A stretch of 64,000 nt of DNA from an uncultured archaeon. GTDB taxonomy: Archaea; Altiarchaeota; Altiarchaeia; IMC4; SCGC-AAA252-I15. Shown here piece by piece: positions 10,205-24,058 of this stretch. Below the pieces are notes generated by a model. It saw nothing but the letters and a program-made list of their open reading frames with translations, was not told the DNA's origin and made no database searches. The stretch covers positions 316-64,315 of the forward strand of contig CABMCB010000092.1 in the NCBI GenBank assembly GCA_902384455.1, written 5' to 3'. Position 1 is the first letter of the stretch, and each line of letters starts with the position of its first letter. A program made the translations under genes and the position numbers.

Positions 10205-10266
10205 CCGGAGATTAAGTTATAAACACGTATAATTCGTCCCTGAGACGAACTTTACAGGTGCTATAA

Positions 10267-10617
10267 ATGGAAGGAAAAAAGAGCTTAACGCTCATGGTAA
10301 CAGTTGCCTTGTTTGTTTTTTTGGCCCAGTCTGTTTTGGCCATCACCGGCACTGAAGCCCAGTCTAGTGCGACAAACGCAATCTGCAACATACTTAATAC
10401 GCTGAGGAACCTGCTTTTCCTGATAGCAGGTGGTGTGGCCGCTTTGGTCATAACCATGCAGGGCATTAAGTGGGCCGGCAGCGCCGATGACCCGGGTGCC
10501 CGCAAGCAAGCCAAGTCTGGAATTGTTAACGCAATCATCGGGCTGGTTATCGTTTTGCTTGCAGTCTGGGTAGTCCTTATGGTGTTCTCCAAGGGCTGCA
10601 ATCTGACTAACCCGTAG
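10267..10617 (+). CDS. VirB2/TrbC-like pilin, T4SS-type pilin subunit 1
   Basis: 116 aa with a Sec-type signal peptide (cleavage near SVLA|ITG). The mature part has two hydrophobic helices separated by a short polar loop (..GIKWAGSADDPGARKQAKSGIVNAIIGLV..), the VirB2/TrbC topology. It is paralogous to 24089 and 24452. Confidence 0.55.
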   Translation: MEGKKSLTLMVTVALFVFLAQSVLAITGTEAQSSATNAICNILNTLRNLLFLIAGGVAALVITMQGIKWAGSADDPGARKQAKSGIVNAIIGLVIVLLAVWVVLMVFSKGCNLTNP

Positions 10618-10628
10618 GTTATCTGATG

Positions 10629-10673: not shown

Positions 10674-10715
10674 GCCGTTTTTTAGGTTCTATCGCCAGTA
10701 AATTATTGGTTTACC

Positions 10716-13700
10716 GTGGGCTCTCTACCTTTATTCCGCAGGCGCTTTGCGCGGAAGTTGGTGGCCGTCGTCTTTCTAGTTCTTTTGCTGTCTCAAAACA
10801 CTTTGGCTTTCTGTGTTTCATGGAGTTGCATCAAAACAGGCTATTCTAACACGGTAGAGTACATCAACTGCGTAAGGACTGACTCGGCGCAGGAGGGTGC
10901 GGTTTTGGCCGTGATTTCGTGTACGGCGAATAAGGCGTGGCAGCTTTTGCTGAGTTTTATTACTGGTGTGGCGAAGGCTATGGTTGAGGGTCTTATGGCG
11001 GCTTTTGAGTATATGTTGACGATTAATCCTTGCTTTTATAATGGGGGCATAGGTGGGATTGGGTGTACTGATCTTTTTGGCCAGCAGGTTCAGCCGAGGC
11101 CTATGGTGTTGGTGCTTGTGGGTACGTTGATTATGGTTTTGTATCCGATTTACGTTGTTTTGCTTTTGCTTGCGGGTTTTTCTTTTATTATTTCGGCTGA
11201 TGATCCTCAGCAGAGGAATATGGCGAAGGAGCGTTTTTATAAGTTGGTTATTTCGATGATTCTTGTTTCTTTGTCTCCGGTCATTTTCCAGTTGTTCCTT
11301 AATTTGGAGGTGGCTTTGGTTGAGGCTGTTTTCGGGATGATTTCTGCGGAGGTTAATAATATGACTGCTTTGTCGGGGGTGACGATTTTTGCGACTATTG
11401 CCATGATTATTGGCGCTTCGTTTGTTCAGACGTCTATTGGCGCCACTTTTGCCCTCATTGTGATTGCGGTTATTGTTGTTATGGGGATCAGGTATCTTAT
11501 GACTACGGTTTTGGGTTGTATGTTTCCCGTTACGTTGTTCTGTTATTTCTGGGAGCCTACTAGGAATTTCGGCAGGGGTTTTGTGACGAAGACTATGATG
11601 TGGATTTTTATTCCTGTTGTTCAGTCGGTTTTTCTGGCGTTGACTATCATCAGTCTTATGAGCATTGGCGGCGGAGGCGCGGCTTCAATAAACAAGATTA
11701 AGAGCAATGCTGTATCTGGGTCTATTACTGAGATCCTGATTCCTATGACGATGATAGGCGCTGGTCTTATCGGCATGATTGTGTCTCCTTTTGTGATGTC
11801 TGGGATGCTGCAGTACATCGGCGGCGCAGTCGCTGCTACTGGGATGGGCATGAGCACTAAGGAGGGAGCTACGAAGGTTCAGAGGGTGAAGGGTTTTGGA
11901 TTGATGGTGGGCGGTGCGAGTCTGATGGGGCAGGGAGTGGGCCCCAGCGCCCAGTACGCAGCCTCGACCGCAGCTTATCTTCAGTCGAGTTTTGGTCAAA
12001 GCGACGAGAGCGCTAACCTTCTCCCGTCTTCATGGAGCGGTTTTAAGCAGGAGGTAAGGGACGTTGGCACGAGCATAGGCAGGGGCGCTAGTAGGGTGAG
12101 GAGAGGCGGCAATTTCTTTAGCGCTACTCCGCCTCGCGCGGGAGGCGCTGCTTGGGGGACTCCGTGGCAGGGACGTTTTAGGGCGCCTTTCCGGCAAGCT
12201 ACCGCCCCTGTTGTAGGTATGTTAGATTCGTTGTCTCAGGATAGCGTTAACCAGCAGGAGGCCCTTAGGATGGTGGGCAAGAACAGGGGGGGCACTGCTG
12301 AGGAGGGTGAAGGTTTTGAGGGCACTAGTCTTGCCGAGAGGAATACTCCGCCTAAGTCTCCTATGTGGAAGTTTTGGGCGCCGGGAACTCCTGAAGGCGG
12401 GTACAGCGACATGTATAATACAGTCGACCAGGAGAACCGCATGAAGGGCGAAGGCAACCTGCCTCTGTTCATGTTTCCGTGGGAGTGGAGTAAGCGCGGC
12501 CAAAGTTTAGGTACGGCGTCCACTCGGCTCGCTGAGGCATTAGCCGGCAGGGAGGCGGTTGTGGAGGGGAAAGGCGGAAAGGCTCTAAGCGGCGGAGAAC
12601 GATGGATGCGCGCAGGAGCAAGCCTGGGCCATCTTGCTTTGGCGTTTAAGCCTGTTAGCCCGCTTTACCCCATCCGCCACATGGGCAGGATTCTTTACGA
12701 CATTGCCGTTGAGCTTGCTCCGCCTACCGGCCCCCTCTGGCTTATGGTGCCGCCGCGGCCAATACAGCCGTGGAAGGACTCTGATAGTAGATGGAAACGG
12801 GGCTTAGGTAAATTTATTTACGGTGCGACTACTGTCGCCCACTATGGCGCCAGGCCTTTTATGCCGCTTGCGTTGCTTCCCACTCAGGAGCGGCTTCATA
12901 GTGCCGGTTTATTCTTGAGCGGACTGGGTTTCCGCCAAGTGTATAATGGTATTGAATGGAAGCGCCAATGTAAGGGCCACGAAGCGGAATGGAAGAGAGC
13001 CCACTCGGACTATGAGGCCGCAAAAGCTTCTGGGGATTCTGCTGGGATGGCTGCAGCCCAAACGAGGAAGGATGATGCTGCGGCGAAGTACGCTTCTTTG
13101 ATGGTTAAGGTCGGCGGCCAAGGCGGGAGTAAAGGCACCCGTTTCATGGGCGAGGACGTTAAGAATCCTGCTTTCCATCGTCAGGAGGAGGAGCGCATAT
13201 CTGAGAGTAATCCTGCTTTCTACGAGCATTACCTTAGGACGGCGAGGTTAAGCAGCAAACCTATGAAGGAGGTTGATGAGGCGATTGCGGCCGGAGGCAA
13301 GTCCGCTAAGAATGCTTTTGTTACTCGGGCTATTGATGAGTTGCTTGAGGAGAGGGGTTTTTCAACGAAGGGTTTGTCATCTGGTGCTGCTGCTAGGGCT
13401 CGCGCTGCTGCTGTTGCTGAGTTCACTGTGGAGGATAAGAGGAGGATTGCTGAGGAAGCGTATTTGATGGCTTCCGCCAGCACCGCAACTGAGGGGAAGT
13501 TTGTTCCCACCAAGCAGGAGCGGCAGGAATACCGGGAGACTCAGGCCAGAAACGGATTGAATCTTTTTGAGTGGGACTCAGGCAACACTGAAATGCAGGT
13601 GCTTGCTTACGGCGTACTGGAGGGTAAGTGGCGGCAGATTGCTTTGGCCAACGAGACTCTTCTGGTGAACAACAGCGAGAACCCCATGCAGTCCATTTAC

Positions 13701-16202
13701 CATGAGGCGTACTACAGGGAGCTTGTGGCGGCAATTAAGGCTACAGGAACGGACGCCCGCCTGAAGCTTGGCGCCCTCCCGGAATCTCCGTCAGAGGCTA
13801 TGTACGAGGCGGTTGGAGGTTGGCGCAAGGAACTTAGCGAGGGAGACCAGCAGAAGGCCCGGGCAGCCCACGACAAGGCGATGGCTGCTGTTGAGGGGAT
13901 AGCGAGGGGTGTTCTTTCCGAGTCTGAGATTAAAGCCTGCGAGCAGAGGGCTGCAGAGCAGGCTAAGGTCACAAACATTCCTCTTAGGCGAGGCAGCCAA
14001 GGCCGCATCTACGCTAGGTTGGATTATGTTGCGTATGTTCAGCAGTTGGGCAAGTACAACGGCGAAGCTAATGAGATGGATGAGTTGGGCGTTGGGATGC
14101 GCGCCGGGTACAGGATGAGGAAGTTGACTGACGATGAGCTTAGGGGAGAAACCGCCATTCCAATGATTTCGAGAGGCAGGAGTGCTCACATAATATACAG
14201 GGATGACGGTGCCTACGTGATAGAGATGTATCATAACGCCGATGCCGTAGATCCTGGCTTAGGCCAGTGGATGCATCCCGGAGGAGCGATTGGTCCTGCC
14301 GGTAATTTCACGCGGGTGGGCAACGAGCCGTTGGAGGAGGCGGAGGTAGTAAACAAGACGGCCGAGCGTAGGGCTAAAGTCTTTGATCATTATGAGGGGG
14401 TTGAGAAGGATTTGGTGGGTTTTGATGTTTCGGCTGACGGTCAGCTTGTGGCTTTGACAAGCGACGGTAAACGCGTGGAATTGAGCGGCGACAGCTATTT
14501 GGTGGACCAGTCGCTTTTTGCTCAGGCGACAAACGGGGGTTTGTCTTCTCAGGAGGCGGATATAGCGCTTAGGGATTACATGCACCGTCTGAAGCAGCAG
14601 GGCGTGCCTGACGATGACGCCATGATGAGGAGCATGCAAAATACTAGGTTGAGGCGGGCTCTTATGACGGACGGAGTGTCTGACGATGTCGCAAGGGACT
14701 TTGCGAGAGTCCCCATGACAAGAGCCCCTCCGGGAGGAGTCCAACGTGAGGAGGAATTGTTTAATTTCGCGGCGATACACGCAGGCGACTACAACCCGCA
14801 AACCCGCCAGAACACCAGGTTGACTGCTGAACAATACATGACGGGAGAAAATGCCAAAAAAGTGTTCACTTCAATGAGGGAGGCAGGCAAGAGGCGGGTC
14901 CAGGAAAAAGACTTGGCCACCGCAGACGCCGAAAGACAGGCTCAAGAACGGCACAGGCAAGCCGCAGGCAGAGTGCAGATTGACGGCGAAGAACTGCTGC
15001 GCCACCCCCCCGTGATATACGACCCCAACAACAGCGAACACGTCAGACTGTACGGGCGGCCTTACGATCCTGTTAAAAATCCTGACGGCAAGAGAGCCGG
15101 CGAACGTCTTGAGCCTTTGAGGTATGATCCGACTAATCCTCATCATAGGGCTTTAGGTTGCGTAGTGTACGACCACGCTAATCCTGAGCATATCCGGTTG
15201 TACGGCAGGGGTTACAGCGACGGGGACGTGGTTTTGCAGCGGTATAAGCCCGGCGAACTGGTGGAAATGCATACTCAGGAGGAGATTGACGAACTTAAGG
15301 TAGCCGTTGATGAGGTCGCGCGTAATGCGGAAGCTGCGACTTCAAGAAGAGTCAGCGTTCCAGACCCCAGTAATCCTGCGGCAACGGTGGACGTGCTTAT
15401 GGGCGGAGAGCACCTTGACGGCGTAAGAATTGTGGCTGAAGGAGGGTGGCCTCCTGTTAACGCTGAAACCCGCGATTCGGGCACTACTTTGGTCATCGAC
15501 ATTGACGCCCAGAGGATTGTGTTGGATCCGACTACAGGGGACCCTGTGCGTGACTCCAACGGAAATTTTGTGCGGGAAAAATACACTTTAGCCGAGCTTA
15601 CGGATATGGTCAGAAACTTTTCTGCAGGCCACGAGTACACTCATTCGGCTTTGCTCAAGCAGGCCGGAGCCACTGAGAGCGTTACAGGCGACGCGGAAGG
15701 CACACGGCGGCTGGCGGACCATGTGATGGCGGACCGGAAGGCTGCTACTGAAAGAGGTTCGGACGGGGTTGTAAGAGACGTGGATTACTTTTCCGGCCTT
15801 GATGCTGTTAGAGGCGATGCGAGGGCTAGGAGGCTGTACAATGCTACTGGGGGGCAGTTTGGTCTTCTTGTGGCTGAGTCTGCTGCTAACTCGTGGCAGC
15901 CAAGCGCCGGCGACCCTAACGTAAGCATATTCGGCGAGACGCGGGCAGATTTCAACCAGCATGTAAGCCAGGCTGCTGCTCAGGTTGCTGCGGCAAACGA
16001 GAACAGACGGTTGAATCGCCGTGACGTAATGGTGCTTGCCAACTTGGCGGAGGCGGCTGAGAGGGCAGGAGACGCAGCGGTTGCCGCAAGAATAGACGGC
16101 ATGATCGCAGCCCCGACAAACGCGGCGTTATTGTCGGACTACAGGGAGGCCAGGCACGTGTCCGGGCTGGTTCACGACAACGTACGGTTTAAGACGCCGT
16201 AA
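10716..16202 (+). CDS. Giant VirB6/TrbL-like polytopic membrane protein with a roughly 1400 aa C-terminal extension
   Basis: 1828 aa. The N-terminal ~430 aa hold at least 7 TM helices. The block FWEPTRNFGRGFVTKTMMWIFIPVVQSVF matches LFEPTRSWGEKYLRKAVKWIFIPVFQAFW in 17078..19825. The remainder is soluble with coiled-coil-like Ala/Glu/Lys stretches and internal repeats (NxEHxRLYGRxY twice). I recognised no enzymatic domain. Confidence 0.5.
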   Translation: MGSLPLFRRRFARKLVAVVFLVLLLSQNTLAFCVSWSCIKTGYSNTVEYINCVRTDSAQEGAVLAVISCTANKAWQLLLSFITGVAKAMVEGLMAAFEYMLTINPCFYNGGIGGIGCTDLFGQQVQPRPMVLVLVGTLIMVLYPIYVVLLLLAGFSFIISADDPQQRNMAKERFYKLVISMILVSLSPVIFQLFLNLEVALVEAVFGMISAEVNNMTALSGVTIFATIAMIIGASFVQTSIGATFALIVIAVIVVMGIRYLMTTVLGCMFPVTLFCYFWEPTRNFGRGFVTKTMMWIFIPVVQSVFLALTIISLMSIGGGGAASINKIKSNAVSGSITEILIPMTMIGAGLIGMIVSPFVMSGMLQYIGGAVAATGMGMSTKEGATKVQRVKGFGLMVGGASLMGQGVGPSAQYAASTAAYLQSSFGQSDESANLLPSSWSGFKQEVRDVGTSIGRGASRVRRGGNFFSATPPRAGGAAWGTPWQGRFRAPFRQATAPVVGMLDSLSQDSVNQQEALRMVGKNRGGTAEEGEGFEGTSLAERNTPPKSPMWKFWAPGTPEGGYSDMYNTVDQENRMKGEGNLPLFMFPWEWSKRGQSLGTASTRLAEALAGREAVVEGKGGKALSGGERWMRAGASLGHLALAFKPVSPLYPIRHMGRILYDIAVELAPPTGPLWLMVPPRPIQPWKDSDSRWKRGLGKFIYGATTVAHYGARPFMPLALLPTQERLHSAGLFLSGLGFRQVYNGIEWKRQCKGHEAEWKRAHSDYEAAKASGDSAGMAAAQTRKDDAAAKYASLMVKVGGQGGSKGTRFMGEDVKNPAFHRQEEERISESNPAFYEHYLRTARLSSKPMKEVDEAIAAGGKSAKNAFVTRAIDELLEERGFSTKGLSSGAAARARAAAVAEFTVEDKRRIAEEAYLMASASTATEGKFVPTKQERQEYRETQARNGLNLFEWDSGNTEMQVLAYGVLEGKWRQIALANETLLVNNSENPMQSIYHEAYYRELVAAIKATGTDARLKLGALPESPSEAMYEAVGGWRKELSEGDQQKARAAHDKAMAAVEGIARGVLSESEIKACEQRAAEQAKVTNIPLRRGSQGRIYARLDYVAYVQQLGKYNGEANEMDELGVGMRAGYRMRKLTDDELRGETAIPMISRGRSAHIIYRDDGAYVIEMYHNADAVDPGLGQWMHPGGAIGPAGNFTRVGNEPLEEAEVVNKTAERRAKVFDHYEGVEKDLVGFDVSADGQLVALTSDGKRVELSGDSYLVDQSLFAQATNGGLSSQEADIALRDYMHRLKQQGVPDDDAMMRSMQNTRLRRALMTDGVSDDVARDFARVPMTRAPPGGVQREEELFNFAAIHAGDYNPQTRQNTRLTAEQYMTGENAKKVFTSMREAGKRRVQEKDLATADAERQAQERHRQAAGRVQIDGEELLRHPPVIYDPNNSEHVRLYGRPYDPVKNPDGKRAGERLEPLRYDPTNPHHRALGCVVYDHANPEHIRLYGRGYSDGDVVLQRYKPGELVEMHTQEEIDELKVAVDEVARNAEAATSRRVSVPDPSNPAATVDVLMGGEHLDGVRIVAEGGWPPVNAETRDSGTTLVIDIDAQRIVLDPTTGDPVRDSNGNFVREKYTLAELTDMVRNFSAGHEYTHSALLKQAGATESVTGDAEGTRRLADHVMADRKAATERGSDGVVRDVDYFSGLDAVRGDARARRLYNATGGQFGLLVAESAANSWQPSAGDPNVSIFGETRADFNQHVSQAAAQVAAANENRRLNRRDVMVLANLAEAAERAGDAAVAARIDGMIAAPTNAALLSDYREARHVSGLVHDNVRFKTP

Positions 16203-16216
16203 TTAACAACAGTCAA

Positions 16217-16600
16217 ATGAACATGATAAAACTTAAGGACGCGGAAGGAGGCAAGCAGTCTCCTGAAAATGAGATAAATCTGAAGGAGATTAACCCTGTA
16301 AGCGAGCGGCCTTCGGGGTTGAGTTTCGGCAGGTTGATTTCAGGGGCTGCTTTGGGGTTGAGTCTCGCCTGTTTGACTCCTGGTTGCGCTCAGGCGGCTT
16401 CTGCGCCGAGTCCTGGTGTTGCCGAGAAAATATTTGATGTGGCGGTTTATGCGGCAAGCACTATTGTTGCGTGGGAATTTTTCGCCACAATCTCAAAGGC
16501 TGTATCGACGCATTATAAACCAAGCGACTTGTTTCGTGCAGGGTGGTTGAGGTTGAGATACGGAAGAAAACAGAATAAGGAGGGAGAGGATGGCGACTAA
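16217..16600 (+). CDS. Hypothetical small protein with a central hydrophobic segment (locus accessory)
   Basis: 127 aa ORF co-directional with the cluster and overlapping the next ORF by 11 nt. A hydrophobic stretch (LISGAALGLSLACL) may be a TM or lipoprotein-like segment. Confidence 0.4.
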   Translation: MNMIKLKDAEGGKQSPENEINLKEINPVSERPSGLSFGRLISGAALGLSLACLTPGCAQAASAPSPGVAEKIFDVAVYAASTIVAWEFFATISKAVSTHYKPSDLFRAGWLRLRYGRKQNKEGEDGD

Positions 16601-17081
16601 GGGCACGGCAGGTGAAGGCAGTTCCCCTAAAGGGTCTAAGGGGAAAACTAGGGTTAGCGAGGCAGACGCGTTAAAAATCCTGAAGGAATTGGCTTGGCGT
16701 AAACTGGAGCTCTACAAATCCGACTCACTGGATGCGATACGAGGGATTGTATTGCAAAGAAGCAAAATCCGCGGAGCAAACCTCGACCCCGGAAAAATAA
16801 GCTGGGAGGAACTTTTCAAGACTAACGTATGCCCCAACTGCCGCGGAAGACTAACTTTACTGGGCGAACGCTACCTATGCGACACATGCCTGATCGAGAT
16901 TCCCGCCAACGTATACGAGGCCGCTGAAAAGCAGTATTACGGTGAGACTAAGCTTTTGGACGATGAACAGCAGGCCACACAGAATCTTTTAGATGCTGGG
17001 TACAGCATGAACGAACTGGTAGAGCTCTACGCGAAAGCGGAAAAGGAGGCGTTAACCGAACCTAGATGGGATAAGAGATGA
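16590..17081 (+). CDS. Hypothetical zinc-ribbon protein
   Basis: 163 aa with a CPNCRG...CDTC (CxxC-x14-CxxC) motif. It overlaps the next gene by 4 nt, so the two are probably translationally coupled. Confidence 0.45.
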   Translation: MATKGTAGEGSSPKGSKGKTRVSEADALKILKELAWRKLELYKSDSLDAIRGIVLQRSKIRGANLDPGKISWEELFKTNVCPNCRGRLTLLGERYLCDTCLIEIPANVYEAAEKQYYGETKLLDDEQQATQNLLDAGYSMNELVELYAKAEKEALTEPRWDKR

Positions 17082-19825
17082 AACCACGCATTTTACTGGC
17101 TGCGGCGTTGATACTTGTTATTTCAGCTGCGGCCTTGCATGCGCAGATGCCCGACGAGCCGGAGGAGGTTAGCCCGCCTTTTTGGGATATGGTGGCTAGA
17201 GGCTTGAACAGTTTGGCGATAGCGGAGATACATCTGCTTGTGTTGTGGACTGCTTTCAATCCGCAACTTTTTTGTTTCCCCGCGTACGCTCACTGCCATG
17301 TGACAGGTGGCGTGGACAAGTTGCTTCCAGCGTTCATATCGGTCTTGATACCGCTTTACATTCTTGCCTTGATTATAACCGGATTTTTCACCATAGTCCG
17401 GGCTGGTTCTCCGCACGGAAGAGCTAGGGCGCGAACCATGTTCAACAAACTCATCCTCAGCATGCTTCTTGTGATTCTTTCGCCGGTGCTGTACCAGCTG
17501 ATGATAGACACGTCCCAGTCCATGACTAAAGCCATAGTGTACGGCTCCGACGTGGACTTGGTTTTCATCCAAATACCCATGCCGACAAGCGCCAACCTCG
17601 ACATGCTGGAGAAGACTTCCACCACCAAGGTAATCGGAATCCTCATATTATCGGCCATGACTTTGTTTGCCGCCGCAATAGGCATCGTAATAGCCATAAT
17701 CCGATGGTTCTACGTCTACATCTACGGCATCGTGTTTCCGTTCATAATATTCCTGTATCTTTTCGAGCCCACCCGCTCTTGGGGAGAAAAATACCTGCGC
17801 AAGGCAGTAAAATGGATTTTCATCCCCGTCTTCCAGGCATTCTGGCTCTCGTTCGCCGTGGCAGTACTGGCGGCAGCCGGAACATACTCGCTGGTTCCCG
17901 TATGGCAGGGGGGAATACCAGCCAGCGCACAGTCGCTAATAGACGAATTCTTCGGCGTACTCATAACCTACTTTATGGTGGGCGCTTCAATCTGGATGTA
18001 CATACTTTCACCCTACGCCATAGCCAAACTTATGACATGGTTCGGCAACGGAATGATATCATACGGCTACGCAAGCCACCAAGCATGGCCCATAACATGG
18101 GGCGGAATAATGGCCGGCTCAGGCGACTCAAGCCTGCTTTCCGCCCACGCCGAATGGAACCGTGAAAGAGCCTTCGAACACTACCAGATGGTCGCAAACG
18201 GCGGACTCATGGGCACGCGCATGGGAGCCACAGCCAGCCGCAGAGGAGGAGTCGAAAGCGGAATGTACGGCGGCGTAGGAGGAGGACCAACCGGCTCAAG
18301 CGCCGCACCCGCAACACCCGGCGGACCAGACTACGGCCCAGTGTTTGGAGGAAGCAGCGGAGGGTATCCGACAGCTGGCCAACCAGATTACCCCGAACAA
18401 AGAAGCGGAAGCGCATTTCCTACATCTGGCCGACCAGATTATCCTGAGCGAACAGGTCAAGGAAACGCTCCTCAGAGCCCGTACAGCTCTGCGGCAATGG
18501 GCGTTGGACAGTGGGGTGTGAACGAAGGAGAAAATGCCGGCGAGCAACCAAACGCAGGCGTGCGAGCGAGAGCAGGCAGCAGTAGTACTGCAGCTTCTTC
18601 GGCTAGAACCTCGGACGAAGGAGGAGGACTGCCGAGACTACAAGGCCCCGCCAGGACTCAACCGGATGAGCAGGCACGCTTCGATGAGAGTTATGAACCA
18701 GACCAAGTCGTCACGTCCACGCAGAAGGGTGGAACCGGCACAGGATATGATGCGGGAAGCACTCAAGGATACGGTGATGACGCACAAGAGGGGGGGGAGG
18801 ATGCTGAATATAGTAATACTCCAACAGGTACGAACGCAACCGGCGGCCGGACGTATAGTCAGGTTCGTTCTGCTGCGGCAGCCGCGCGCAGGCCTGGAAC
18901 TGCTTCGCCGACTGAGTTTGATGCTCCTGGCGAGAATCAACTGGTTTCATCGCGTGATGATGTTCCTGGCGACCCCGGAGGCACTAAAGAAGGTGACGCA
19001 GGGCCCGACGCAACTGTAGACGCAGGAGGTGGAGTTGCTTCAGGCAGAGCCCGAAGGACGAGAGAAGCAGATACTTCAAGCAGAACCGGACGCGTTAGAG
19101 AAGCCGACTCCGGCGACCAACGGGCAAGGAAACGGAAAAAAACGGATTATTTCGACGACGTTGAAACCGGGCCTAAAGAGGATAGGAGTAGTACAGACAG
19201 GACTGCAACAGACGATAGGACTGCCACAGATTGGGGTGCTTCAAGGCTGAAAGCACCCCCACGGGGGGTAGAACCAGTACAGCAGACGGAATCCAACCAG
19301 CAGGCTAGGGATGATTCCTCATACAACGATACTGCTTCCGCATTAGGAGAAAGTAGACTAGCAGAAGAGGACTCGGATGCGGCAACGGATGCAGGAAAGG
19401 ATGAGGATGTGTTAGCTATAATCCGCAGAGAAAGTAAGAAGGCCAAGCAGGAGGGGAGAAAAGGCGGCTTCGATAAAGACTTCCTTAAGGAAGAGCTCGA
19501 CCAAATCAACAAACAAAAACAAGGAACGGACAAAAGATTTGACTGGGAAACACAAGGAGACGACACCGCGATTAAAGAAGGCGAAAACAAAGTTTATTCC
19601 GCAGTCGACAAACGAGCAACAGCCCGCAAACTTGAGGCCGACAACGCGGCTGCAAACTTGGACGAAGCAAAAAGGTTTACGGCATCTGAAAAAGAGAAGG
19701 AAAAAGGCAGAATACAGGACACTAATAAGAATATAGTTACAGCCAAAGCAGATGCGAAAAGCCAAAAACAAATCGCCAAAGACCAGGCGAAATTCCAACC
19801 TAAAGGCAAATCAGGAGAAAGTTAA
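17078..19825 (+). CDS. VirB6/TrbL-like polytopic membrane protein paralog with a disordered low-complexity C-terminal tail
   Basis: 915 aa. It has a signal peptide and at least 6 TM helices homologous to the N-terminal part of 10716..16202. The C-terminal ~550 aa are G/S/P/D/E/R/T-rich with short tandem repeats (GQPDYPEQR / GRPDYPERT; TDRTATDDRTATD). Confidence 0.5.
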   Translation: MKPRILLAAALILVISAAALHAQMPDEPEEVSPPFWDMVARGLNSLAIAEIHLLVLWTAFNPQLFCFPAYAHCHVTGGVDKLLPAFISVLIPLYILALIITGFFTIVRAGSPHGRARARTMFNKLILSMLLVILSPVLYQLMIDTSQSMTKAIVYGSDVDLVFIQIPMPTSANLDMLEKTSTTKVIGILILSAMTLFAAAIGIVIAIIRWFYVYIYGIVFPFIIFLYLFEPTRSWGEKYLRKAVKWIFIPVFQAFWLSFAVAVLAAAGTYSLVPVWQGGIPASAQSLIDEFFGVLITYFMVGASIWMYILSPYAIAKLMTWFGNGMISYGYASHQAWPITWGGIMAGSGDSSLLSAHAEWNRERAFEHYQMVANGGLMGTRMGATASRRGGVESGMYGGVGGGPTGSSAAPATPGGPDYGPVFGGSSGGYPTAGQPDYPEQRSGSAFPTSGRPDYPERTGQGNAPQSPYSSAAMGVGQWGVNEGENAGEQPNAGVRARAGSSSTAASSARTSDEGGGLPRLQGPARTQPDEQARFDESYEPDQVVTSTQKGGTGTGYDAGSTQGYGDDAQEGGEDAEYSNTPTGTNATGGRTYSQVRSAAAAARRPGTASPTEFDAPGENQLVSSRDDVPGDPGGTKEGDAGPDATVDAGGGVASGRARRTREADTSSRTGRVREADSGDQRARKRKKTDYFDDVETGPKEDRSSTDRTATDDRTATDWGASRLKAPPRGVEPVQQTESNQQARDDSSYNDTASALGESRLAEEDSDAATDAGKDEDVLAIIRRESKKAKQEGRKGGFDKDFLKEELDQINKQKQGTDKRFDWETQGDDTAIKEGENKVYSAVDKRATARKLEADNAAANLDEAKRFTASEKEKEKGRIQDTNKNIVTAKADAKSQKQIAKDQAKFQPKGKSGES
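18361..18470 (+). repeat. Imperfect tandem coding repeat (~28 nt unit, spaced 50 nt) encoding G(Q/R)PDYPE(Q/R)
   Basis: ctggccaaccagattaccccgaacaa is read against ctggccgaccagattatcctgagcga. Confidence 0.4.
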
Positions 19826-19849
19826 AATAAACCCCCAGCTAACTAATAA

Positions 19850-20794
19850 TTGAATAACCACATGACAAGCGAAGAAAAAGAAGGCCGACGAAGGATACTG
19901 CAGGACTTGGAGAGGGACGTAATCCAAAGCCCCCGCGAACAAGAGGAACTCCGAAGAGAAATACGAACCCAAGACGCCGACGACATCGCAATCAAAGACC
20001 GCATACTACGCCAAGCAGAACGCATAAGAACCACGGCACCACCACCCGGCACACACGTAAGACAAACAACCTCAGCAGCCGGAGGCTCAGGAGGAAGCGG
20101 AGACGACATAGTGCAAATACCACTCAGAGACGAACGCCTACGCGACATGAGCGTCGGAGAAATACAAAACAGAATACCACCCGGCGCAACAGTAACAATG
20201 AGCAACGACGGAATAACCGTCGGCCTACACAGAAGCGACATAACAGAAATACTCATCGACCACATTTTCATCGCGGCCGCAGGCCCCACTAAAAAAGGGA
20301 AGTCTATGCTTAAGCCAGCTGGCGCCCCATGGGCATCGGAGGCCGTGAGCATGGAGCTCGCAAGCAAAGGCGTGCGTCCGGTATGGCACCGCATAACTAA
20401 ATACGAGCTTATGGATGACTACTCCAGGTACTATCTCCTGTGGGAGTGGGACCATCAGCTGCTTCGTATCCAAAACGGACTAGCCGCAGGATACCAACCC
20501 AGCGCACCCCGCACATGGTGGAAGAAAAAAATCAAAAGCGACGTAGACGCCATGATAGACGACCTCAACAGAGACCTGTCTTATGAAGGCCAATACATGA
20601 AGAGAGTCAAAGGCAGGATGGAGCAACACGCAAAAGACCATGCTGCGGCCAAAGCAGCCTTAGACCATTGGGAAGAGGACCTTAGGGGATACGACAGGTT
20701 CACGACTGAAGAGGAAAAAAGGATAGCGGACTACACAAAAGGCGCGATGGAGCAGGCAATGGCCGCCGAGAAGATAGAGGAAATATCCGACTAA
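19850..20794 (+). CDS. Hypothetical soluble protein (locus accessory)
   Basis: The 314 aa ORF is predicted from a TTG start. A more likely start is the ATG at 19862 (MTSEEKEGRR...). The N-terminus is charged. I recognised no domain. Confidence 0.4.
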   Translation: MNNHMTSEEKEGRRRILQDLERDVIQSPREQEELRREIRTQDADDIAIKDRILRQAERIRTTAPPPGTHVRQTTSAAGGSGGSGDDIVQIPLRDERLRDMSVGEIQNRIPPGATVTMSNDGITVGLHRSDITEILIDHIFIAAAGPTKKGKSMLKPAGAPWASEAVSMELASKGVRPVWHRITKYELMDDYSRYYLLWEWDHQLLRIQNGLAAGYQPSAPRTWWKKKIKSDVDAMIDDLNRDLSYEGQYMKRVKGRMEQHAKDHAAAKAALDHWEEDLRGYDRFTTEEEKRIADYTKGAMEQAMAAEKIEEISD

Positions 20795-20832: not shown

Positions 20833-21759
20833 ATGCCGTACGCAATACCTAAAAACATCCGGTACGAGGAGAAGCTCCTAGGCCCCCTCACCGTCAAGCA
20901 GACTGCTTACGTCGGAGTAGGCGCGTCAATAGCCGGCTACATTTACATGATGAGCGGCCTGCAGGACGAAATCAAGACCGCCGCGGTACTGGTCGTGGGG
21001 TTGCTGACGATAGGGTTTGCCATGTTCAACCTCGACACCCTACTTCGGACGTACGTGGGCTTCATGCGGGCGACTAAAAAGAGCAGTTGGATATCGCCTG
21101 CAGCACGAGAACTCCTTAACATCCAAAGCATCCGCGCAGACGCAGTCTACCTGAAAGACAAGAGGATACTTGGGCTGCTCAAGGTTAGGCCCATAAACTT
21201 CGGCGTCCTTTCCGCGCACGACCAAGACACCGTCATCTACGGCTTCCTTGAGTTCCTCAACAGCCTCAACTTCAGCATACAGATTACAATGCGAAGCGTC
21301 AACCTCGACCTTGAGGATTATCTTCGGCACCTTAAACGCCGCATAGTGCACAGAGATGACAAGGTGGCTCTGGCGTACTACGAACACTTCGCAGAGTACA
21401 TGCGCACATACATCAAAGTGAACAGAATCAACGACCGGCACTTCTACGTGGTCGTGCCGGCCGCAAAAGGAAAAGACGAAAAAACAACCGTATTAGACCT
21501 GGAAAAAAGATGCGAACTAATATCGGCTACTTTAGGCTTGAGCGGGATAGTTAGCGAACGGATGGACACCCATGCGTTAATCAATTTTTACAGCAGCTAC
21601 TTCACGGAAACATTCGAGATATTCGAGTCATACATAAGCCCCATCACACTGTACAGGAAGATGTGGAAGCAGGCGCCAAAACACGTGTTAAACCAAGCAG
21701 GACCCGGAGTTTCTCCGACTGCGCCGGCACAACAACCGCAGGCGAAGCCGCCGGAATAA
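20833..21759 (+). CDS. VirB3-like two-TM segment fused to a VirB4 N-terminal domain
   Basis: 308 aa. Two N-terminal TM helices (VGVGASIAGYIYMM; AAVLVVGLLTIGFAMF) are followed by a region resembling the N-terminal domain of VirB4/TrbE/TraC (..LLKVRPINFGVLSAHDQDTVIYGFLEFLNSLNFSIQITMRSVNLD..). It ends 4 nt before the next gene, in a different frame. Confidence 0.45.
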   Translation: MPYAIPKNIRYEEKLLGPLTVKQTAYVGVGASIAGYIYMMSGLQDEIKTAAVLVVGLLTIGFAMFNLDTLLRTYVGFMRATKKSSWISPAARELLNIQSIRADAVYLKDKRILGLLKVRPINFGVLSAHDQDTVIYGFLEFLNSLNFSIQITMRSVNLDLEDYLRHLKRRIVHRDDKVALAYYEHFAEYMRTYIKVNRINDRHFYVVVPAAKGKDEKTTVLDLEKRCELISATLGLSGIVSERMDTHALINFYSSYFTETFEIFESYISPITLYRKMWKQAPKHVLNQAGPGVSPTAPAQQPQAKPPE

Positions 21760-21763
21760 TACC

Positions 21764-24058
21764 ATGGGACTAGCTGACTTACTACCTTTCGGAGGCAAAA
21801 AGAAGGAGACGACGGGAGCCGGCAACGAGACATACTCAGAATACGAAGACCGCCTCATAGAATACCTGACAAGCCCCTCCACGATCATCCAGCACAAGGA
21901 AGACATACAAATCAGCAAATACCACCGCGTAGTCGCAGCAATAGACTTCCCCCGCATCGTAGACCCAGGCTGGCTAACCCGGCTCATAGAAATGAACCTG
22001 GACTTCGACCTGTCGATGCACATAAACCCCTACAACGTAGACTCCACAATCAAACTGCTGGAGAACGAGATAAAGAAGCAGAAAACAGACCTCTACGCGC
22101 TCGAATCAGAAGGAAAAATAGTGCCCCAAGCCCTCATACAACAGCACCAAGACACACTCGCACTACTACAACTCGTACAGGAAGGCACTGAAAAAATGTT
22201 CGACGTCTCCCTCTACATAGACGCCAAAGCATACGCCTCAGAAGAACTGGACTCAAACGCCAAACAAATAATGACGACGATGAACAGCATCATGGTAACC
22301 CCAAAAATACCAAGCTACCAGATGTACAAAGGCCTCAAAAGCATCCTCCCCATCGCCGACGACCAATTGAGGGTGACGCGCAACATCACAAGCTCAGCAC
22401 TCGCCGCCTGCTTCCCGTTTGCCATAACAAGCCTGGAAACTCACGCCACAGGCATACTACTGGGGTTCAACGAATACAACAGCATCCCCATCATAATAGA
22501 CCCCTTCAACTACACCAACCCCAACGTGCTCGTCCTTGGAACCAGCGGAGGCGGAAAAAGCTACACCCTAAAACTCATGATAATGCGGGAATTCATGGAA
22601 GGAGTATCAGTCAACATGATAGACCCGCAAGCCGAATACACCGACCTCGTCAAGACTTTCAATGGGAAGACCATCAGAATCGCCCCCGACAGCGACAGCA
22701 TAATCAACCCCTTCGACCTCATGGGACAGACACTCGACGAAAAGAAACTATCATTGCTCGCATTCTTCCGCGTCCTCTTGGGCGAACTGACCGAACCAGA
22801 ACGCGCCATACTCGACGACGCCATAGACAGAACATACGAAGAAAAAGGCATAACAAACGACCCAAAAACATGGAGCAAAAGACCGCCGCTACTCGAAGAC
22901 CTATACAACGAAGTCCTACCCCTAACACGAAGCAGCAAAGACATAGTCTACAAACCGGCAATGGCCATAGTCAACCAAATGAAAAGCTACGTGTTCGGCC
23001 CCATGAAGTTCTTGAACCAGCAGACTAAGATTGACCTAAGCAACCGGATGATCAATTTCGACATCCGGGACGCACCCGACATAGGCAAAGGAGTCATAAT
23101 GTTCCTGATTCTCGAGTACGTCTACACCCAGATGAAGAAGAGCAAGACCAGAAAGATGCTCGTCATCGACGAAGCCTGGACGGTGCTCTCGGCAGGAGAC
23201 CAGGCCGAGTACATACTGCGGCTCGTCAAGACGTGCAGGAAATTCAACCTAAGCTTGTGCATGATAACCCAAGACGTAGAGGACGTGCTGGTCAGCCGCG
23301 CAGGCCGCGCCGTGCTCACCAACACCGCAACCAAACTGCTTCTGAAGCAGGACACCAGCGTCATAGACCAGATTGCGGACAAATTCCACCTAAACGAAAA
23401 CGAAGTCCGTTTCCTAAAGACCGCCCGCGCAGGACACGCTCTGCTCATCGCAGAAAACACGCGCGTCCCCATCTTCATCCAAGCAAGCCCCGAGGAACAC
23501 CGCGTAATCACCACCAAACCAGACGAACTCATACAGCTGGAGCAGGTAATGCGGCCTATGGGCGACGACATCGTGCCTGAATTCGACATCAACAAGAAGA
23601 TACACCAGAAGGCGGAACTCACGGACGACCAGATTAAGATACTGCAGGACAGAGACTTCGACGAAACCCGCATCACCACGCTAACGGGAGACAACGAACT
23701 GTTCATCATAAAGAACGAGACTGAAGAATCCGACGAACACTTCGTGCTCCAACACCTGATACTGGAAGAAACCAAAAAACACACCGATAAAGGACTGTCC
23801 CACCACACCCAGCTGCCGGACGTAACGTTCGAAGCAGGAGGAGGACGCCTCGTCGCAGTCGAAGTCGAGACGGAGGGAGGACTCAAGAGGGCGCTTGAAA
23901 ACATGGACACCAAACTCCCAGTCATGAAGAAGTACGACGACTACTTCTACGTAGTCACAAGCCCCACCATCAAAAGAGACTACGCAGACAGATTCGGCGG
24001 ACCCGAAAAAGTCATTATGCGGGACGAAGCAGCAGCCAAAATCGCCTCATACTTCTGA
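21764..24058 (+). CDS. VirB4/TrbE/CagE-family T4SS ATPase with a C-terminal Hjc/PD-(D/E)xK-like nuclease domain
   Basis: 764 aa with Walker A VLGTSGGGKS (about residues 257-266) and Walker B KMLVIDEAW. The C-terminal ~160 aa (EHFVLQHLILEE...PDVTFEAGGGRLVAVEVETEGGLKR...KRDYADRFGGPEKVIM) resemble archaeal Holliday-junction resolvase Hjc (E...VDLVA...IEVK...[20 protein letters not shown]). Confidence 0.6.
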   Translation: MGLADLLPFGGKKKETTGAGNETYSEYEDRLIEYLTSPSTIIQHKEDIQISKYHRVVAAIDFPRIVDPGWLTRLIEMNLDFDLSMHINPYNVDSTIKLLENEIKKQKTDLYALESEGKIVPQALIQQHQDTLALLQLVQEGTEKMFDVSLYIDAKAYASEELDSNAKQIMTTMNSIMVTPKIPSYQMYKGLKSILPIADDQLRVTRNITSSALAACFPFAITSLETHATGILLGFNEYNSIPIIIDPFNYTNPNVLVLGTSGGGKSYTLKLMIMREFMEGVSVNMIDPQAEYTDLVKTFNGKTIRIAPDSDSIINPFDLMGQTLDEKKLSLLAFFRVLLGELTEPERAILDDAIDRTYEEKGITNDPKTWSKRPPLLEDLYNEVLPLTRSSKDIVYKPAMAIVNQMKSYVFGPMKFLNQQTKIDLSNRMINFDIRDAPDIGKGVIMFLILEYVYTQMKKSKTRKMLVIDEAWTVLSAGDQAEYILRLVKTCRKFNLSLCMITQDVEDVLVSRAGRAVLTNTATKLLLKQDTSVIDQIADKFHLNENEVRFLKTARAGHALLIAENTRVPIFIQASPEEHRVITTKPDELIQLEQVMRPMGDDIVPEFDINKKIHQKAELTDDQIKILQDRDFDETRITTLTGDNELFIIKNETEESDEHFVLQHLILEETKKHTDKGLSHHTQLPDVTFEAGGGRLVAVEVETEGGLKRALENMDTKLPVMKKYDDYFYVVTSPTIKRDYADRFGGPEKVIMRDEAAAKIASYF

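What the first reader, a model, noticed from the sequence alone, without database searches (positions are those of the whole stretch)
10716..19825. Two paralogous giant VirB6-like proteins with huge C-terminal extensions
The 1828 aa and 915 aa proteins share a homologous polytopic N-domain (FWEPTRNFG...MWIFIPVVQSVF against LFEPTRSWG...KWIFIPVFQAFW) and then diverge. One has a ~1400 aa mostly helical, repeat-containing soluble region. The other has a ~550 aa G/S/P/D/E/R-rich disordered tail with short tandem repeats. Extended VirB6 paralogs are otherwise best known from obligate intracellular Rickettsiales, where the extensions are surface-exposed. Seeing the same pattern here hints at a cell-cell interaction role. 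Internal repeats lie at about 15029-15224 (NxEH[VI]RLYGRxY) and 18361-18470.
Basis: partly seen in the sequence, partly recalled or inferred. Interest (0 to 1): 0.7.

Follow-up and report, generated by a model that had tools for sequence, protein, structure and literature searches.

The report
Two extended VirB6 proteins, archaeal secretion locus
Two very large membrane proteins in this uncultured archaeon (most likely an Altiarchaeota) are duplicated, extended versions of VirB6, the core platform protein of conjugation-type secretion machines. They sit in a conserved chromosomal operon with pilins and the VirB4 motor, and the larger one carries a previously unnoticed protease-like HExxH module.

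Summary
ORF1 (10716-16202, 1828 aa) and ORF2 (17078-19825, 915 aa) are real ORFs. Their polytopic N-domains are paralogous (BLASTP E 2e-33), and both reported repeats exist.

The VirB6 reading is supported:
- Weak Pfam TrbL hits recur in family members, and one homologue carries a precomputed TrbL_3 hit.
- The genes lie in an operon-like run with three VirB2-like pilins, a PrgI/TraC-like gene and VirB4.

The whole cluster, with one long and one short VirB6 paralogue, recurs in every Altiarchaeota MAG locus that has enough context. Housekeeping genes flank it, and no integrase, relaxase or coupling protein was seen, so it looks like a resident Ced/Ted- or Patescibacteria-like minimal T4SS.

New here: 22 of 31 long paralogues carry an HExxH motif (1.4 expected by chance), with a conserved upstream strand and a downstream Glu. 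This is a gluzincin-like signature fused to VirB6. Fold searches did not confirm it.

The short paralogue has a low-complexity tail with a charged end. Location and function of both extensions are inferred, not shown. I rate this a new variant of a known kind.

The parts
10267..10617 (+). VirB2-like pilin gene A (116 aa), the first gene of the cluster. A TTTATATA box lies upstream and a T-rich stretch follows the gene.
   Evidence: Pfam T4SS_pilin PF18895 at E 5e-14 and TrbC at 2e-6. Intergenic sequence read. Orthologues at 54-59% identity sit in the same position in L002 and L005.
10716..16202 (+). ORF1, the long extended VirB6-like paralogue (1828 aa)
   Evidence: ORF list and translation. 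The only 100% database match is P0001, 'uncultured archaeon'. Long-type orthologues of 1627-2025+ aa occupy the same position in L001, L002, L005 and L014.
10983..11900 (+). ORF1 VirB6-like polytopic N-domain (aa 90-395). It contains the pilin-like helix-loop-helix (aa 127-211, loop SADDPQQRNMAKERF at 11193-11237) and the FWEPTRNFG motif (11547-11573).
   Evidence: BLASTP against the ORF2 N-domain, E 2e-33. Pfam T4SS_pilin on aa 136-194, 28.9 bits, above the gathering score. Profile search finds 441 relatives. hhalign of locus pilins against the N-domain profile: probability 87%, E 3.6e-6.
11901..12395 (+). ORF1 G/S/P-rich linker (aa 396-560)
   Evidence: Composition: G+S+P is 0.29-0.34. Poorly conserved among long paralogues.
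12453..12785 (+). ORF1 block aa 580-690 (...PVSPLYPIRHMGRILYDIAVELAPP...). Apart from the HExxH module, this is the only part of the extension shared by many long paralogues.
   Evidence: BLASTP hits to 15 or more long-type proteins fall in aa ~560-870. Consensus PxSPFxPxRxxGR...LPP in alignment A5. No Pfam match.
15030..15215 (+). ORF1 short repeats: (V)YDxxNxEH[VI]RLYGRxY twice (aa 1439-1450 and 1489-1500), with a degenerate copy between them
   Evidence: Regex and sequence. Not conserved in homologues.
15276..16199 (+). ORF1 C-terminal HExxH (gluzincin-like) module: predicted beta-sheet 15348-15518, helix 15588-15662 bearing HEYTH (15630-15644), and the candidate third ligand Glu1721 in ESAAN (15876-15890)
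   Evidence: HExxH occurs in 22 of 31 long-type extensions against 1.36 expected. It is aligned with an upstream [IV]N[LMV][GSA] strand and a Glu conserved in at least 90% of sequences downstream. In the AF2 model, residues 100-160 have pLDDT 72-92, a sheet plus the HExxH helix. Fold and profile searches do not confirm a zincin.
16217..16600 (+). Small ORF (127 aa, one hydrophobic segment). It is not found in the other loci.
16590..17081 (+). Conserved small CxxC...CxxC zinc-ribbon protein (163 aa). It always lies immediately upstream of the short paralogue and overlaps the ORF2 start (ATGA).
   Evidence: tblastn hits in L001-L010 and L012, directly upstream of the short paralogue. Sequence. 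Weak Zn_ribbon Pfam hit.
17078..19825 (+). ORF2, the short extended VirB6-like paralogue (915 aa)
   Evidence: Orthologues of 644-700 aa at 29-34% identity in the same position in all loci.
17249..18130 (+). ORF2 VirB6-like N-domain (aa 58-351), with the family-typical basic loop GSPHGRARAR (17405-17434) and LFEPTRSWG (17759-17785)
18131..19822 (+). ORF2 low-complexity tail (aa 352-915): a G/S/P-rich part with two 17-aa tandem repeats (18351-18452), a KGGFDKDFLKEE motif (19460-19495) and a K/E-rich C-terminal ~115 aa
   Evidence: Composition. DNA repeat. No BLAST similarity to any other tail. The same kind of tail, ending in K/R runs, occurs in most short-type homologues. GGF[ST]PxD[LV]-type motif in 7 of 88 tails against 0.2 expected.
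19850..20794 (+). Conserved soluble protein (314 aa) of unknown role
   Evidence: No Pfam hit. Weakly conserved in L001, L002, L005 and L011.
20833..21759 (+). PrgI/VirB3-like plus TraC-like protein (308 aa, one TM)
   Evidence: Pfam PrgI at E 5e-7. 61-64% identical in the other loci. The homologue in L014 carries PF26593 TraC-like.
21764..24058 (+). VirB4-type ATPase (764 aa)
   Evidence: Pfam TraG P-loop 7e-29, AAA_10, DUF87. 72-74% identical in Altiarchaeota loci. About 30% identical to monoderm 'VirB4-like, CD1110 family' plasmid genes.
24089..24796 (+). Two further VirB2-like pilin genes (24089-24424, 111 aa; 24452-24796, 114 aa)
   Evidence: Pfam T4SS_pilin at 2e-8 and 3e-11, TrbC at 3e-7. 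Syntenic in all loci.

Best explanation
ORF1 and ORF2 are two anciently duplicated, extended members of the VirB6/TrbL family. They belong to a resident chromosomal, minimal type IV secretion / conjugative-pilus-like machine conserved in Candidatus Altiarchaeota. The machine comprises three VirB2-like pilins, two VirB6-like proteins, a VirB3/TraC-like protein and a VirB4 ATPase.

Shown:
- paralogy of the two N-domains;
- a VirB6-type fold;
- pilin-like nature of the first helix-loop-helix;
- operon-like context;
- synteny across MAGs;
- absence of mobile-element hallmark genes near the cluster.

Inferred by homology with R388 TrwI and DotA:
- After signal-peptide-dependent insertion, the pilin-like hairpin anchors each protein in the cytoplasmic membrane, with its basic loop facing the cytoplasm.
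- The remaining hydrophobic helices oligomerise, probably as pentamers, into the central platform or protochannel. VirB4 drives polymerisation of the VirB2-like pilins on this platform, and the substrate passes through it.
- The C-terminal extensions would then lie on the extracytoplasmic side.

Inferred from motif conservation only:
- The long paralogue adds a conserved middle block and a C-terminal gluzincin-like HExxH...E module.
- I take this module to be an envelope- or pilin-processing metalloprotease built into the machine. It would be the counterpart of the separate cell-wall hydrolase (VirB1/PrgK, or the PG metalloendopeptidase) of bacterial relatives.
- The short paralogue adds a flexible, fast-evolving tail with a charged C-terminus that could bind a partner or nucleic acid.

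The substrate is unknown. With no relaxase or coupling protein in the cluster, chromosomal DNA exchange as in Ced/Ted, or a contact-dependent exchange as in Patescibacteria, is more likely than plasmid conjugation.
For: Paralogy: BLASTP E 2e-33.

Family: 441 representatives at E<=1e-3. They split into long (1300-2260 aa, no PRGRARAR loop) and short (550-850 aa, G[ST]PRGRARAR loop) types.

Sequence: Pfam TrbL on ORF2 at E 2.2e-4 and on 10 of 32 members, best 3e-6. Precomputed TrbL_3 on P0041 and P0043.

Pilin-like hairpin: Pfam T4SS_pilin above the gathering score on ORF1, and on 7 of 32 and 11 of 27 members. hhalign probability 87%. This matches the published relationships between CedA and CedA1 and between VirB6 and VirB2 (PMC9905601).

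Context: pilins, PrgI-like and VirB4 on one strand, with gaps of 40 nt or less or overlaps.

Synteny in Altiarchaeota MAGs and metagenomes: VirB4 is 72-74% identical, while the VirB6-likes are only 24-34% identical.

Chromosomal setting: the flanks are tRNA synthetases, HMG-CoA reductase, LeuC and TGT. No family member was found on viral contigs.

HExxH enrichment and co-conserved positions. The AF2 core is a sheet plus the HExxH helix at pLDDT 72-92.

Analogy: the Pontibacillus plasmid locus with the closest VirB4 has the same parts plus a separate PG DD-metalloendopeptidase.

Topology precedent: only two N-proximal helices of R388 VirB6 are in the membrane and the bulk is periplasmic (PMC12857230).
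Against: - Neither ORF reaches Pfam's TrbL gathering score. ORF1 has no TrbL hit at all.
- Profile searches of PDB sequences find no VirB6.
- In ORF1 the otherwise conserved Asn of the upstream strand is Asp, and the ExxxD motif is ExxxN.
- 9 of 31 long paralogues lack HExxH.
- The side of the membrane on which the extensions lie was not determined. Classical topology mapping of Agrobacterium VirB6 put the C-terminus in the cytoplasm (my recollection, not checked), and the FEPTRxxGxKxxR loop is basic.
- The rest of the genome was not available, so a relaxase or coupling protein encoded elsewhere cannot be excluded.
Confidence: 0.72

Rival explanations
1. The cluster is the transfer module of an integrated conjugative element or plasmid rather than a domesticated cellular system. 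ORF1 and ORF2 would then be its mating-pore proteins, transferring the element's own DNA.
For: VirB4 is most similar to VirB4 genes of monoderm conjugative plasmids or megaplasmids, at about 30% identity. T4SS gene sets are typically mobile. The flanks differ between loci. A weak PriCT_1 primase-like ORF lies at 54685-55557, 30 kb away.
Against: No integrase, relaxase, coupling protein, replication gene or tRNA attachment site lies within at least 10 kb on either side in the window or in L001, L002, L005 and L014. Gene order is conserved, and VirB4 is 72-74% identical across Altiarchaeota MAGs whose named members are all from this phylum. Upstream genes are partly shared: PMT pair in L002, DUF63-like protein in L005. 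There are no hits on viral contigs and no BLAST relative of the ORF2 N-domain (E 0.2 at best) on 72,556 plasmids. GC content is not distinct from the surroundings.
Confidence: 0.12
2. The extensions are cytoplasmic, not surface-exposed. The tails would recruit substrate or ATPases on the inside, as proposed for C-terminal domains of Gram-positive VirB6 homologues. The HExxH module would act on cytoplasmic targets or be non-catalytic.
For: The positive-inside rule fits a model in which the basic FEPTRxxGxKxxR loop and the C-terminus are cytoplasmic (sequence). Short-type tails end in K/R-rich runs, and one homologue (P0042) carries two HhH DNA-binding motifs (HHH_5, E 7.9e-19) in its tail. N-glycosylation sequons are not enriched in either extension. 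Neighbouring cluster proteins o163 and o314 have no signal peptide or TM.
Against: In the homologous R388 TrwI/VirB6 structure only two N-proximal helices are in the membrane and the rest is periplasmic. The ORF2 N-domain model aligns with 206 of 261 TrwI residues. The hydrophobic stretch of about 47 residues is modelled as one continuous helix, too long for a single span. The VirB6-likes diverge much faster than VirB4 (24-34% against 72-74% identity), which is typical of exposed parts.
Confidence: 0.3
3. The HExxH motif and its neighbours are a structural or metal-binding feature with no peptidase activity, or a conserved interaction helix. The extension would be purely a scaffold or adhesin.
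Against: The motif is enriched 16-fold over expectation. It is aligned at a fixed place, with a preceding strand and a Glu conserved in at least 90% of sequences about 45-105 residues downstream, the arrangement of gluzincins. The best Foldseek hits, though not significant, are to MATCAP, which I recall from memory to be an HExxH metallocarboxypeptidase. One member has a weak hit to BSP peptidase.
Confidence: 0.35

Closest known systems
Extended-VirB6 subfamily of bacterial T4SS: Rickettsiales RvhB6/VirB6 paralogues, F-plasmid TraG, Legionella DotA, and MPF_FA VirB6 homologues of 700-900 aa
   Same: An N-terminal polytopic VirB6 domain followed by a large hydrophilic or unstructured C-proximal region (review PMC12857230). 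Several paralogues occur in one locus, as in Rickettsiales. The DotA and TrwI folds are the best structural matches.
   Different: The host is an archaeon. There is no detectable sequence similarity in the extensions. The long form reaches 1300-2260 aa and carries an HExxH...E module that I do not know from any VirB6 protein (from memory; the only text searched for it was the review read). The long/short pair is fixed across a phylum.
Archaeal Ced (Sulfolobales) and Ted (Thermoproteales) DNA-import systems: CedA/TedA, CedA1/TedC, CedB/TedB
   Same: A chromosomal, 'domesticated' set of VirB2-like pilin, VirB6-like membrane protein and VirB4-like ATPase without a relaxase. The N-terminus of the VirB6-like protein is homologous to the pilin (PMC9905601; reproduced here). 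The pilins have a cleavable-looking signal peptide, as TedC does.
   Different: According to that paper the Ced and Ted components show no recognizable sequence similarity to each other either. The system here has two VirB6 paralogues with giant extensions, three pilin genes and a PrgI/TraC-like gene, and is in a different phylum.
Patescibacteria (CPR) T4SS
   Same: The same Pfam signature set: VirB4, PrgI, VirB6 and PF18895 T4SS_pilin. It is usually without a relaxase and is related to the monoderm MPF_FATA class (PMC12102498).
   Different: That system is bacterial. Extended paralogous VirB6 proteins with HExxH do not appear in the passages of that paper that I read. Relatedness of the VirB4 proteins was not analysed phylogenetically here.
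Pontibacillus sp. ALD_SL1 megaplasmid T4SS locus (NZ_CP062975.1, 351.8-361.4 kb)
   Same: The closest plasmid VirB4 (30% identity). It has two PF18895 pilins, a 779-aa TrbL-like protein and a PrgI/TraL-like protein in the same order.
   Different: It has a single VirB6-like gene. The envelope hydrolase is a separate 1050-aa PG DD-metalloendopeptidase gene, not a domain fused to VirB6. hhalign of its VirB6-like protein to the archaeal family gives only 44% probability.

Membership tests
VirB6/TrbL family (Pfam clan of PF04610, TrbL_3, TrbL_4) | [quoted passage not shown] | tested here: met
   Hydropathy: a signal-like segment plus about 6 hydrophobic segments in both ORFs. The AF2 model of ORF2 aa 58-351 is all-helical with 8 helices.
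VirB6/TrbL family (Pfam clan of PF04610, TrbL_3, TrbL_4) | Sequence match to a TrbL/VirB6 profile at the curated threshold | tested here: not met
   ORF2: TrbL 21.5 bits against a cut-off of 25.9 (E 2.2e-4). ORF1: no TrbL hit. In the wider family, 10 of 32 members match TrbL, best 3.1e-6. P0041 and P0043 carry precomputed PF19590 TrbL_3 hits. So the family is linked to the clan, but the two window proteins themselves are below threshold.
VirB6/TrbL family (Pfam clan of PF04610, TrbL_3, TrbL_4) | Fold like solved VirB6 proteins (R388 TrwI, Legionella DotA) | tested here: met
VirB6/TrbL family (Pfam clan of PF04610, TrbL_3, TrbL_4) | Encoded with VirB4 and other T4SS core genes | tested here: met
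   Same-strand cluster with three VirB2-like pilins, a PrgI-like gene and VirB4. Conserved in 5 or more independent loci.
VirB6/TrbL family (Pfam clan of PF04610, TrbL_3, TrbL_4) | Pentameric central platform that nucleates the pilus or channel | not testable with these tools
   No multimer prediction or experiment was available.
Extended-VirB6 subfamily | VirB6 domain plus one or more large hydrophilic central or C-proximal domains | tested here: met
   ORF1 has about 1430 aa and ORF2 about 565 aa after the last hydrophobic helix. The definition is from PMC12857230.
Ced/Ted-type domesticated archaeal DNA-import T4SS | Chromosomal VirB2-, VirB6- and VirB4-like genes without a relaxase or coupling protein | tested here: met
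   The parts list and housekeeping flanks were seen, and no mobile-element genes were found in the window or related loci. Only 64 kb of this genome could be inspected.
Ced/Ted-type domesticated archaeal DNA-import T4SS | Sequence or profile homology to CedA/TedA, and DNA import activity | not tested
   CedA and TedA sequences were not in any searchable collection left to me. The function needs experiment.
Zincin (gluzincin-type) metallopeptidases | HExxH on a helix plus a third zinc ligand (Glu) on a downstream helix | tested here: met
   HEYTH at aa 1639-1643 on predicted helix 1625-1649. Glu1721 aligns with a Glu conserved in at least 90% of sequences, often in an ExxxD context. HExxH occurs in 22 of 31 long paralogues against 1.36 expected.
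Zincin (gluzincin-type) metallopeptidases | Zincin fold (mixed beta-sheet packed on the active-site helix) recognisable against known peptidases | tested here: inconclusive

The most novel reading that the evidence does not exclude
Altiarchaeota are among the few archaea with two membranes and a periplasm about 32 nm wide (PMC4460559). Their only T4SS parts are of the monoderm type: no VirB7, VirB9 or VirB10 was recognised in the cluster. The 1300-2260-aa extension of the long VirB6 paralogue, with its built-in HExxH protease-like module, could be a new solution for carrying a conjugative-type pilus or channel across a periplasm and an archaeal outer membrane. It would replace the bacterial outer-membrane core complex and the VirB1 hydrolase. 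The short paralogue would form the inner platform.
Probability: 0.2. Interest if true: 0.85.

Novelty: new variant of a known kind. Interest (0 to 1): 0.62.

Why it matters
T4SS-like machines in archaea are known experimentally only from Ced and Ted in Thermoproteota, plus a few conjugative plasmids. I found no paper linking Altiarchaeota to VirB4 or VirB6. The seven papers that mention both Altiarchaeota and type IV secretion were screened by title and abstract only, and none appears to describe such a system.

A phylum-wide chromosomal T4SS with a fixed pair of extended VirB6 paralogues would extend the 'domesticated conjugation machinery' idea to a deep-subsurface, biofilm-forming, double-membraned lineage. 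That lineage also hosts episymbionts (my recollection of Huberarchaeota, not checked here).

The function of VirB6 extensions is an acknowledged open question (PMC12857230). A conserved catalytic-looking module fused to VirB6 gives a concrete, testable handle on it.

Tried and rejected
- All three word-index protein searches were nearly useless. ORF1 found only itself. The full-length family alignment found 4 proteins. The N-domain-only alignment found none. Low-complexity and hydrophobic words appear to have swamped the 8000-candidate limit. The exhaustive HMMER search was what worked.
- Sequence searches against PDB with ORF1, ORF2, the family profile and the HExxH profile gave nothing relevant.
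Distribution is therefore undersampled and biased towards PRGRARAR-bearing short paralogues.
- Fold searches for the HExxH module were inconclusive. The AFDB library was unavailable.
- Exact look-ups of P0001 (the database copy of ORF1) and ORF2 in the contig index failed, so the sample of origin is unknown.
- tRNA and Rfam scans of the window were empty.
- Assembly chimera was considered and rejected (see the observation check).
- I considered that the pilin Pfam hit inside ORF1 might mean a mis-called fused pilin gene. I rejected this because the hairpin is continuous with the conserved N-domain in all 150 listed family members, and the same relationship is published for CedA/CedA1 and VirB6/VirB2.
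- I considered a functional link to the upstream PMT_2 glycosyltransferases (O-glycosylation of the S/T-rich tail). The pair is syntenic only in the window and L002, so I left this as a lead.
Full report
**What is there**

The ORF listing and translation confirm two long same-strand ORFs at exactly the reported coordinates: ORF1 at 10716-16202 (GTG, 1828 aa) and ORF2 at 17078-19825 (ATG, 915 aa).

BLASTP aligns ORF1 aa 134-376 with ORF2 aa 82-330 at 27% identity, E 2e-33. Nothing else aligns.

Each protein starts with a signal-peptide-like segment. It is then followed by a Cys-containing segment and about six hydrophobic helices. There are no hydrophobic segments after aa ~365 (ORF1) or ~311 (ORF2).

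The reported repeats are real but small:
- ORF1 has two copies of NxEH[VI]RLYGRxY at aa 1439 and 1489, with a degenerate copy between them.
- ORF2 has a 2 x 17-aa tandem at nt 18351-18452.
- Self-BLAST finds no larger internal repeats.

The ORF2 tail is poor in hydrophobic residues throughout: 0.06-0.11 per 100-residue block over aa 401-800, and 0.07-0.16 in the K/E-rich end. The first part is rich in G/S/P.

**Organism and neighbourhood**

The window is archaeal. It encodes an archaeal-type PheT, a type III RuBisCO, an archaeal PurA and a class II HMG-CoA reductase. The only database copy of ORF1 is labelled 'uncultured archaeon'.

ORF1 and ORF2 sit in a tightly spaced, same-strand run, in this order:
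1. a VirB2-like pilin (PF18895/TrbC);
2. ORF1;
3. two small ORFs;
4. ORF2;
5. a 314-aa protein;
6. a PrgI (VirB3)-like / TraC-like protein;
7. a VirB4 ATPase (TraG P-loop, DUF87);
8. two more VirB2-like pilins.

Upstream lie glycosyltransferases. Downstream lie CBS, PP-loop, HMGR and LeuCD genes. No integrase, relaxase, coupling ATPase or tRNA gene was found in the window.

**The family**

An exhaustive HMMER search with the two-sequence N-domain profile found 441 cluster representatives at E<=1e-3, of which 41 are at 1e-30 or better. Lengths are bimodal.
- Proteins of 1300-2260 aa score better against the ORF1 N-domain and lack the basic loop motif.
- Proteins of 550-850 aa score better against ORF2 and carry G[ST]PRGRARAR between the first two helices.

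The long/short duplication is therefore old and maintained. Every family member that carries a source name is from Candidatus Altiarchaeota. All five hits of a scan of species-representative genomes are Altiarchaeota/Altiarchaeales MAGs.

In the loci with enough context (L001, L002, L005, L009, L014) the order is the same: pilin, long paralogue, zinc-ribbon ORF, short paralogue, ORF, PrgI/TraC-like, VirB4, pilins.
- VirB4 is 72-74% identical to the window copy and the PrgI-like protein 61-64%.
- The VirB6-like proteins are only 24-34% identical.
- Flanks in those MAGs are tRNA synthetases, TGT, a subtilase and similar genes.
- The PMT pair (L002) and the DUF63-like gene (L005) are partly shared upstream.
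- No relative was found on viral contigs. On PLSDB plasmids, BLAST with the ORF2 N-domain gave nothing better than E 0.2.

I conclude that the window comes from an Altiarchaeota genome and that the cluster is a resident chromosomal system.

**Is it VirB6?**

By sequence the link is weak but recurrent.
- Pfam TrbL matches ORF2 at E 2.2e-4, below the gathering score. ORF1 has no TrbL hit.
- 10 of 32 family members match TrbL, best 3e-6, and one matches TrbL_4.
- Two Altiarchaeota homologues have precomputed TrbL_3 hits.

The first helix-loop-helix of the domain is pilin-like.
- Pfam T4SS_pilin is above threshold on ORF1 aa 136-194 and matches many members.
- hhalign of the locus's own pilins against the N-domain profile gives 87% probability, E 3.6e-6.
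- This is exactly the relationship reported between CedA and CedA1 and between VirB6 and VirB2 (PMC9905601).
- ORF1's loop (SADDPQQRNMAKERF) even resembles that of the adjacent pilin (GSADDPGARKQAKSGI).

**The extensions**

The extensions evolve fast. Apart from the N-domain, ORF1 shares with other long paralogues only a block at aa ~580-690 (up to 870) and a C-terminal module.

In the alignment of 27 long proteins a consensus HExxH appeared.
- 22 of 31 long-type extensions contain HExxH, against 1.36 expected from composition.
- 3 of 88 short-type tails contain it, against 0.52 expected.
- The motif (HEYTH, aa 1639-1643 in ORF1) is aligned with a preceding [IV]N[LMV][GSA] strand 22-45 residues upstream in most members (over 100 residues in three).
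- An independently conserved Glu (at least 90% of sequences; Glu1721 in ORF1) lies downstream, often as ExxxD. This is the gluzincin arrangement.

An AF2 model of aa 1479-1828 has low mean confidence (59.7). It does predict, at pLDDT 72-92, a beta-sheet followed by the helix that bears HExxH.

Confirmation failed:
- no Pfam family matches any long extension;
- no PDB profile hit;
- Foldseek's best hits, to the metallocarboxypeptidase MATCAP, are not significant at E 0.23;
- one of 18 segments weakly matches BSP peptidase.

I therefore treat the protease module as a well-supported motif-level inference, not a demonstrated fold.

Short-type tails share no alignable sequence but have a common design. 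A G/S/P-rich stretch is followed by a highly charged region that ends in K/R runs in most members. A GGF[ST]PxD[LV]-like motif occurs in 7 of 88 tails, including ORF2 aa 795-806. One homologue (P0042) has two helix-hairpin-helix motifs there (HHH_5, E 7.9e-19).

**How it probably works**

The parts list is that of minimal monoderm/archaeal T4SSs. The VirB4 is closest to monoderm 'CD1110-family' VirB4 proteins.

The Pontibacillus megaplasmid locus holding the best plasmid match has two PF18895 pilins, one 779-aa TrbL-like protein, a PrgI/TraL-like protein and VirB4. It also has a separate 1050-aa peptidoglycan DD-metalloendopeptidase.

In R388, only two N-proximal helices of VirB6 are in the membrane and the rest forms a periplasmic pentamer that nucleates the pilus (PMC12857230). 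By homology I infer the following:
- the pilin-like hairpin of ORF1 and ORF2 is the membrane anchor, with its basic loop inside;
- the remaining helices form the central platform or protochannel;
- the extensions emerge on the outer side.

The HExxH module of the long paralogue would then be the machine's own envelope- or pilin-processing enzyme, fused rather than separately encoded.

The substrate is unknown. No relaxase or T4CP was seen nearby, which points to Ced/Ted-like DNA exchange or a Patescibacteria-like contact function.

A cytoplasmic location of the tails remains a serious alternative. Supporting it are the positive-inside rule for the FEPTR loop, the K/R-rich ends, HhH motifs in one homologue, and no sequon enrichment.

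**Context that raises interest**

Ca. Altiarchaeum has two membranes, a periplasm about 32 nm wide, and no S-layer (PMC4460559). Yet no VirB7/9/10-type outer-membrane components are recognisable in the cluster. The giant extension might be how this lineage bridges the envelope. That is speculation, which I rate at about 0.2.

I found no paper connecting Altiarchaeota with VirB4. The papers that mention Altiarchaeota together with type IV secretion or with conjugation and pili were judged by title and abstract, and one was read in part. None appears to describe such a system.

**Verdict**

It is a new variant of a known kind: an extended VirB6 in an archaeal, chromosomally resident T4SS. Two features deserve follow-up. 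One is the phylum-wide long/short paralogue pair. The other is the HExxH module fused to VirB6.

Noticed in passing
window 10618-10715 and 10190-10266: A TTTATATA box lies about 50 nt upstream of the first pilin gene. A T-rich run (TTTTTATTTCTTCTTTTGCCGTTTTTT) lies between the pilin gene and ORF1. This looks like an archaeal promoter and a partial terminator that could set a high ratio of pilin to machinery.
   Followed up: no
window 5912-10070: A GT2 glycosyltransferase and two PMT_2 (dolichyl-phosphate-mannose protein mannosyltransferase-like) genes lie directly upstream of the cluster. The PMT pair is also upstream of the cluster in L002, but not in L001 or L005. A link to glycosylation of pilins or of the S/T-rich tail is possible.
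   Followed up: partly
P0042 aa 539-665 (family member, 738 aa): One short-type homologue carries two helix-hairpin-helix DNA-binding motifs (Pfam HHH_5, E 7.9e-19) in its tail. This hints that tails can contact nucleic acid.
   Followed up: partly
window 19460-19495 (ORF2 aa 795-806) and homologues P0015, P0017, P0019, P0021, P0037, P0058: A short linear motif GGF[ST]PxD[LV] (KGGFDKDFLKEE in ORF2) recurs, sometimes several times, in otherwise unalignable tails: 7 of 88 tails against 0.2 expected from shuffles.
   Followed up: partly
L001 1228-2565 and 2489-8566: In this Altiarchaeota MAG the long paralogue is split into two overlapping ORFs of 445 and 2025 aa. This could be a frameshift, a sequencing error or a genuine split between the N-domain and the extension.
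   Followed up: no
L013 (Pontibacillus sp. ALD_SL1 megaplasmid NZ_CP062975.1, 351.8-361.4 kb): A bacterial T4SS locus has the same parts and order: two PF18895 pilins (one annotated as Mbov_0395 family), a 779-aa TrbL-like protein, a PrgI/TraL-like protein and VirB4. It is followed by a 1050-aa PG DD-metalloendopeptidase and sits next to flagellar genes.
   Followed up: partly
window 1031-1957 (-): The PheT homologue is only 308 aa and matches positions 261-548 of the 551-position archaeal pheT model. The ORF upstream of it (1984-3921, 645 aa) has no Pfam match. The phenylalanyl-tRNA synthetase beta subunit may be truncated or split.
   Followed up: no
window 54685-56091: A 290-aa ORF has a weak PriCT_1 (primase C-terminal) hit, followed by a 176-aa ORF with a double zinc ribbon, next to type III RuBisCO and GltB. 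This may be a remnant of a mobile element.
   Followed up: no
window 1-6000 and 18000-24000: Strand composition is strongly skewed. AT skew is -0.51 to -0.15 where genes are on the minus strand and +0.32 to +0.41 where they are on the plus strand. GC skew reaches +0.38. Coding strands are markedly A-rich.
   Followed up: no
L014 13961-15448: In the MAG GCA_043820265.1 one of the downstream pilin-like genes is 495 aa, with a weak T4SS_pilin hit and a faint TSP_3 hit. It is a pilin with a large extra domain.
   Followed up: no
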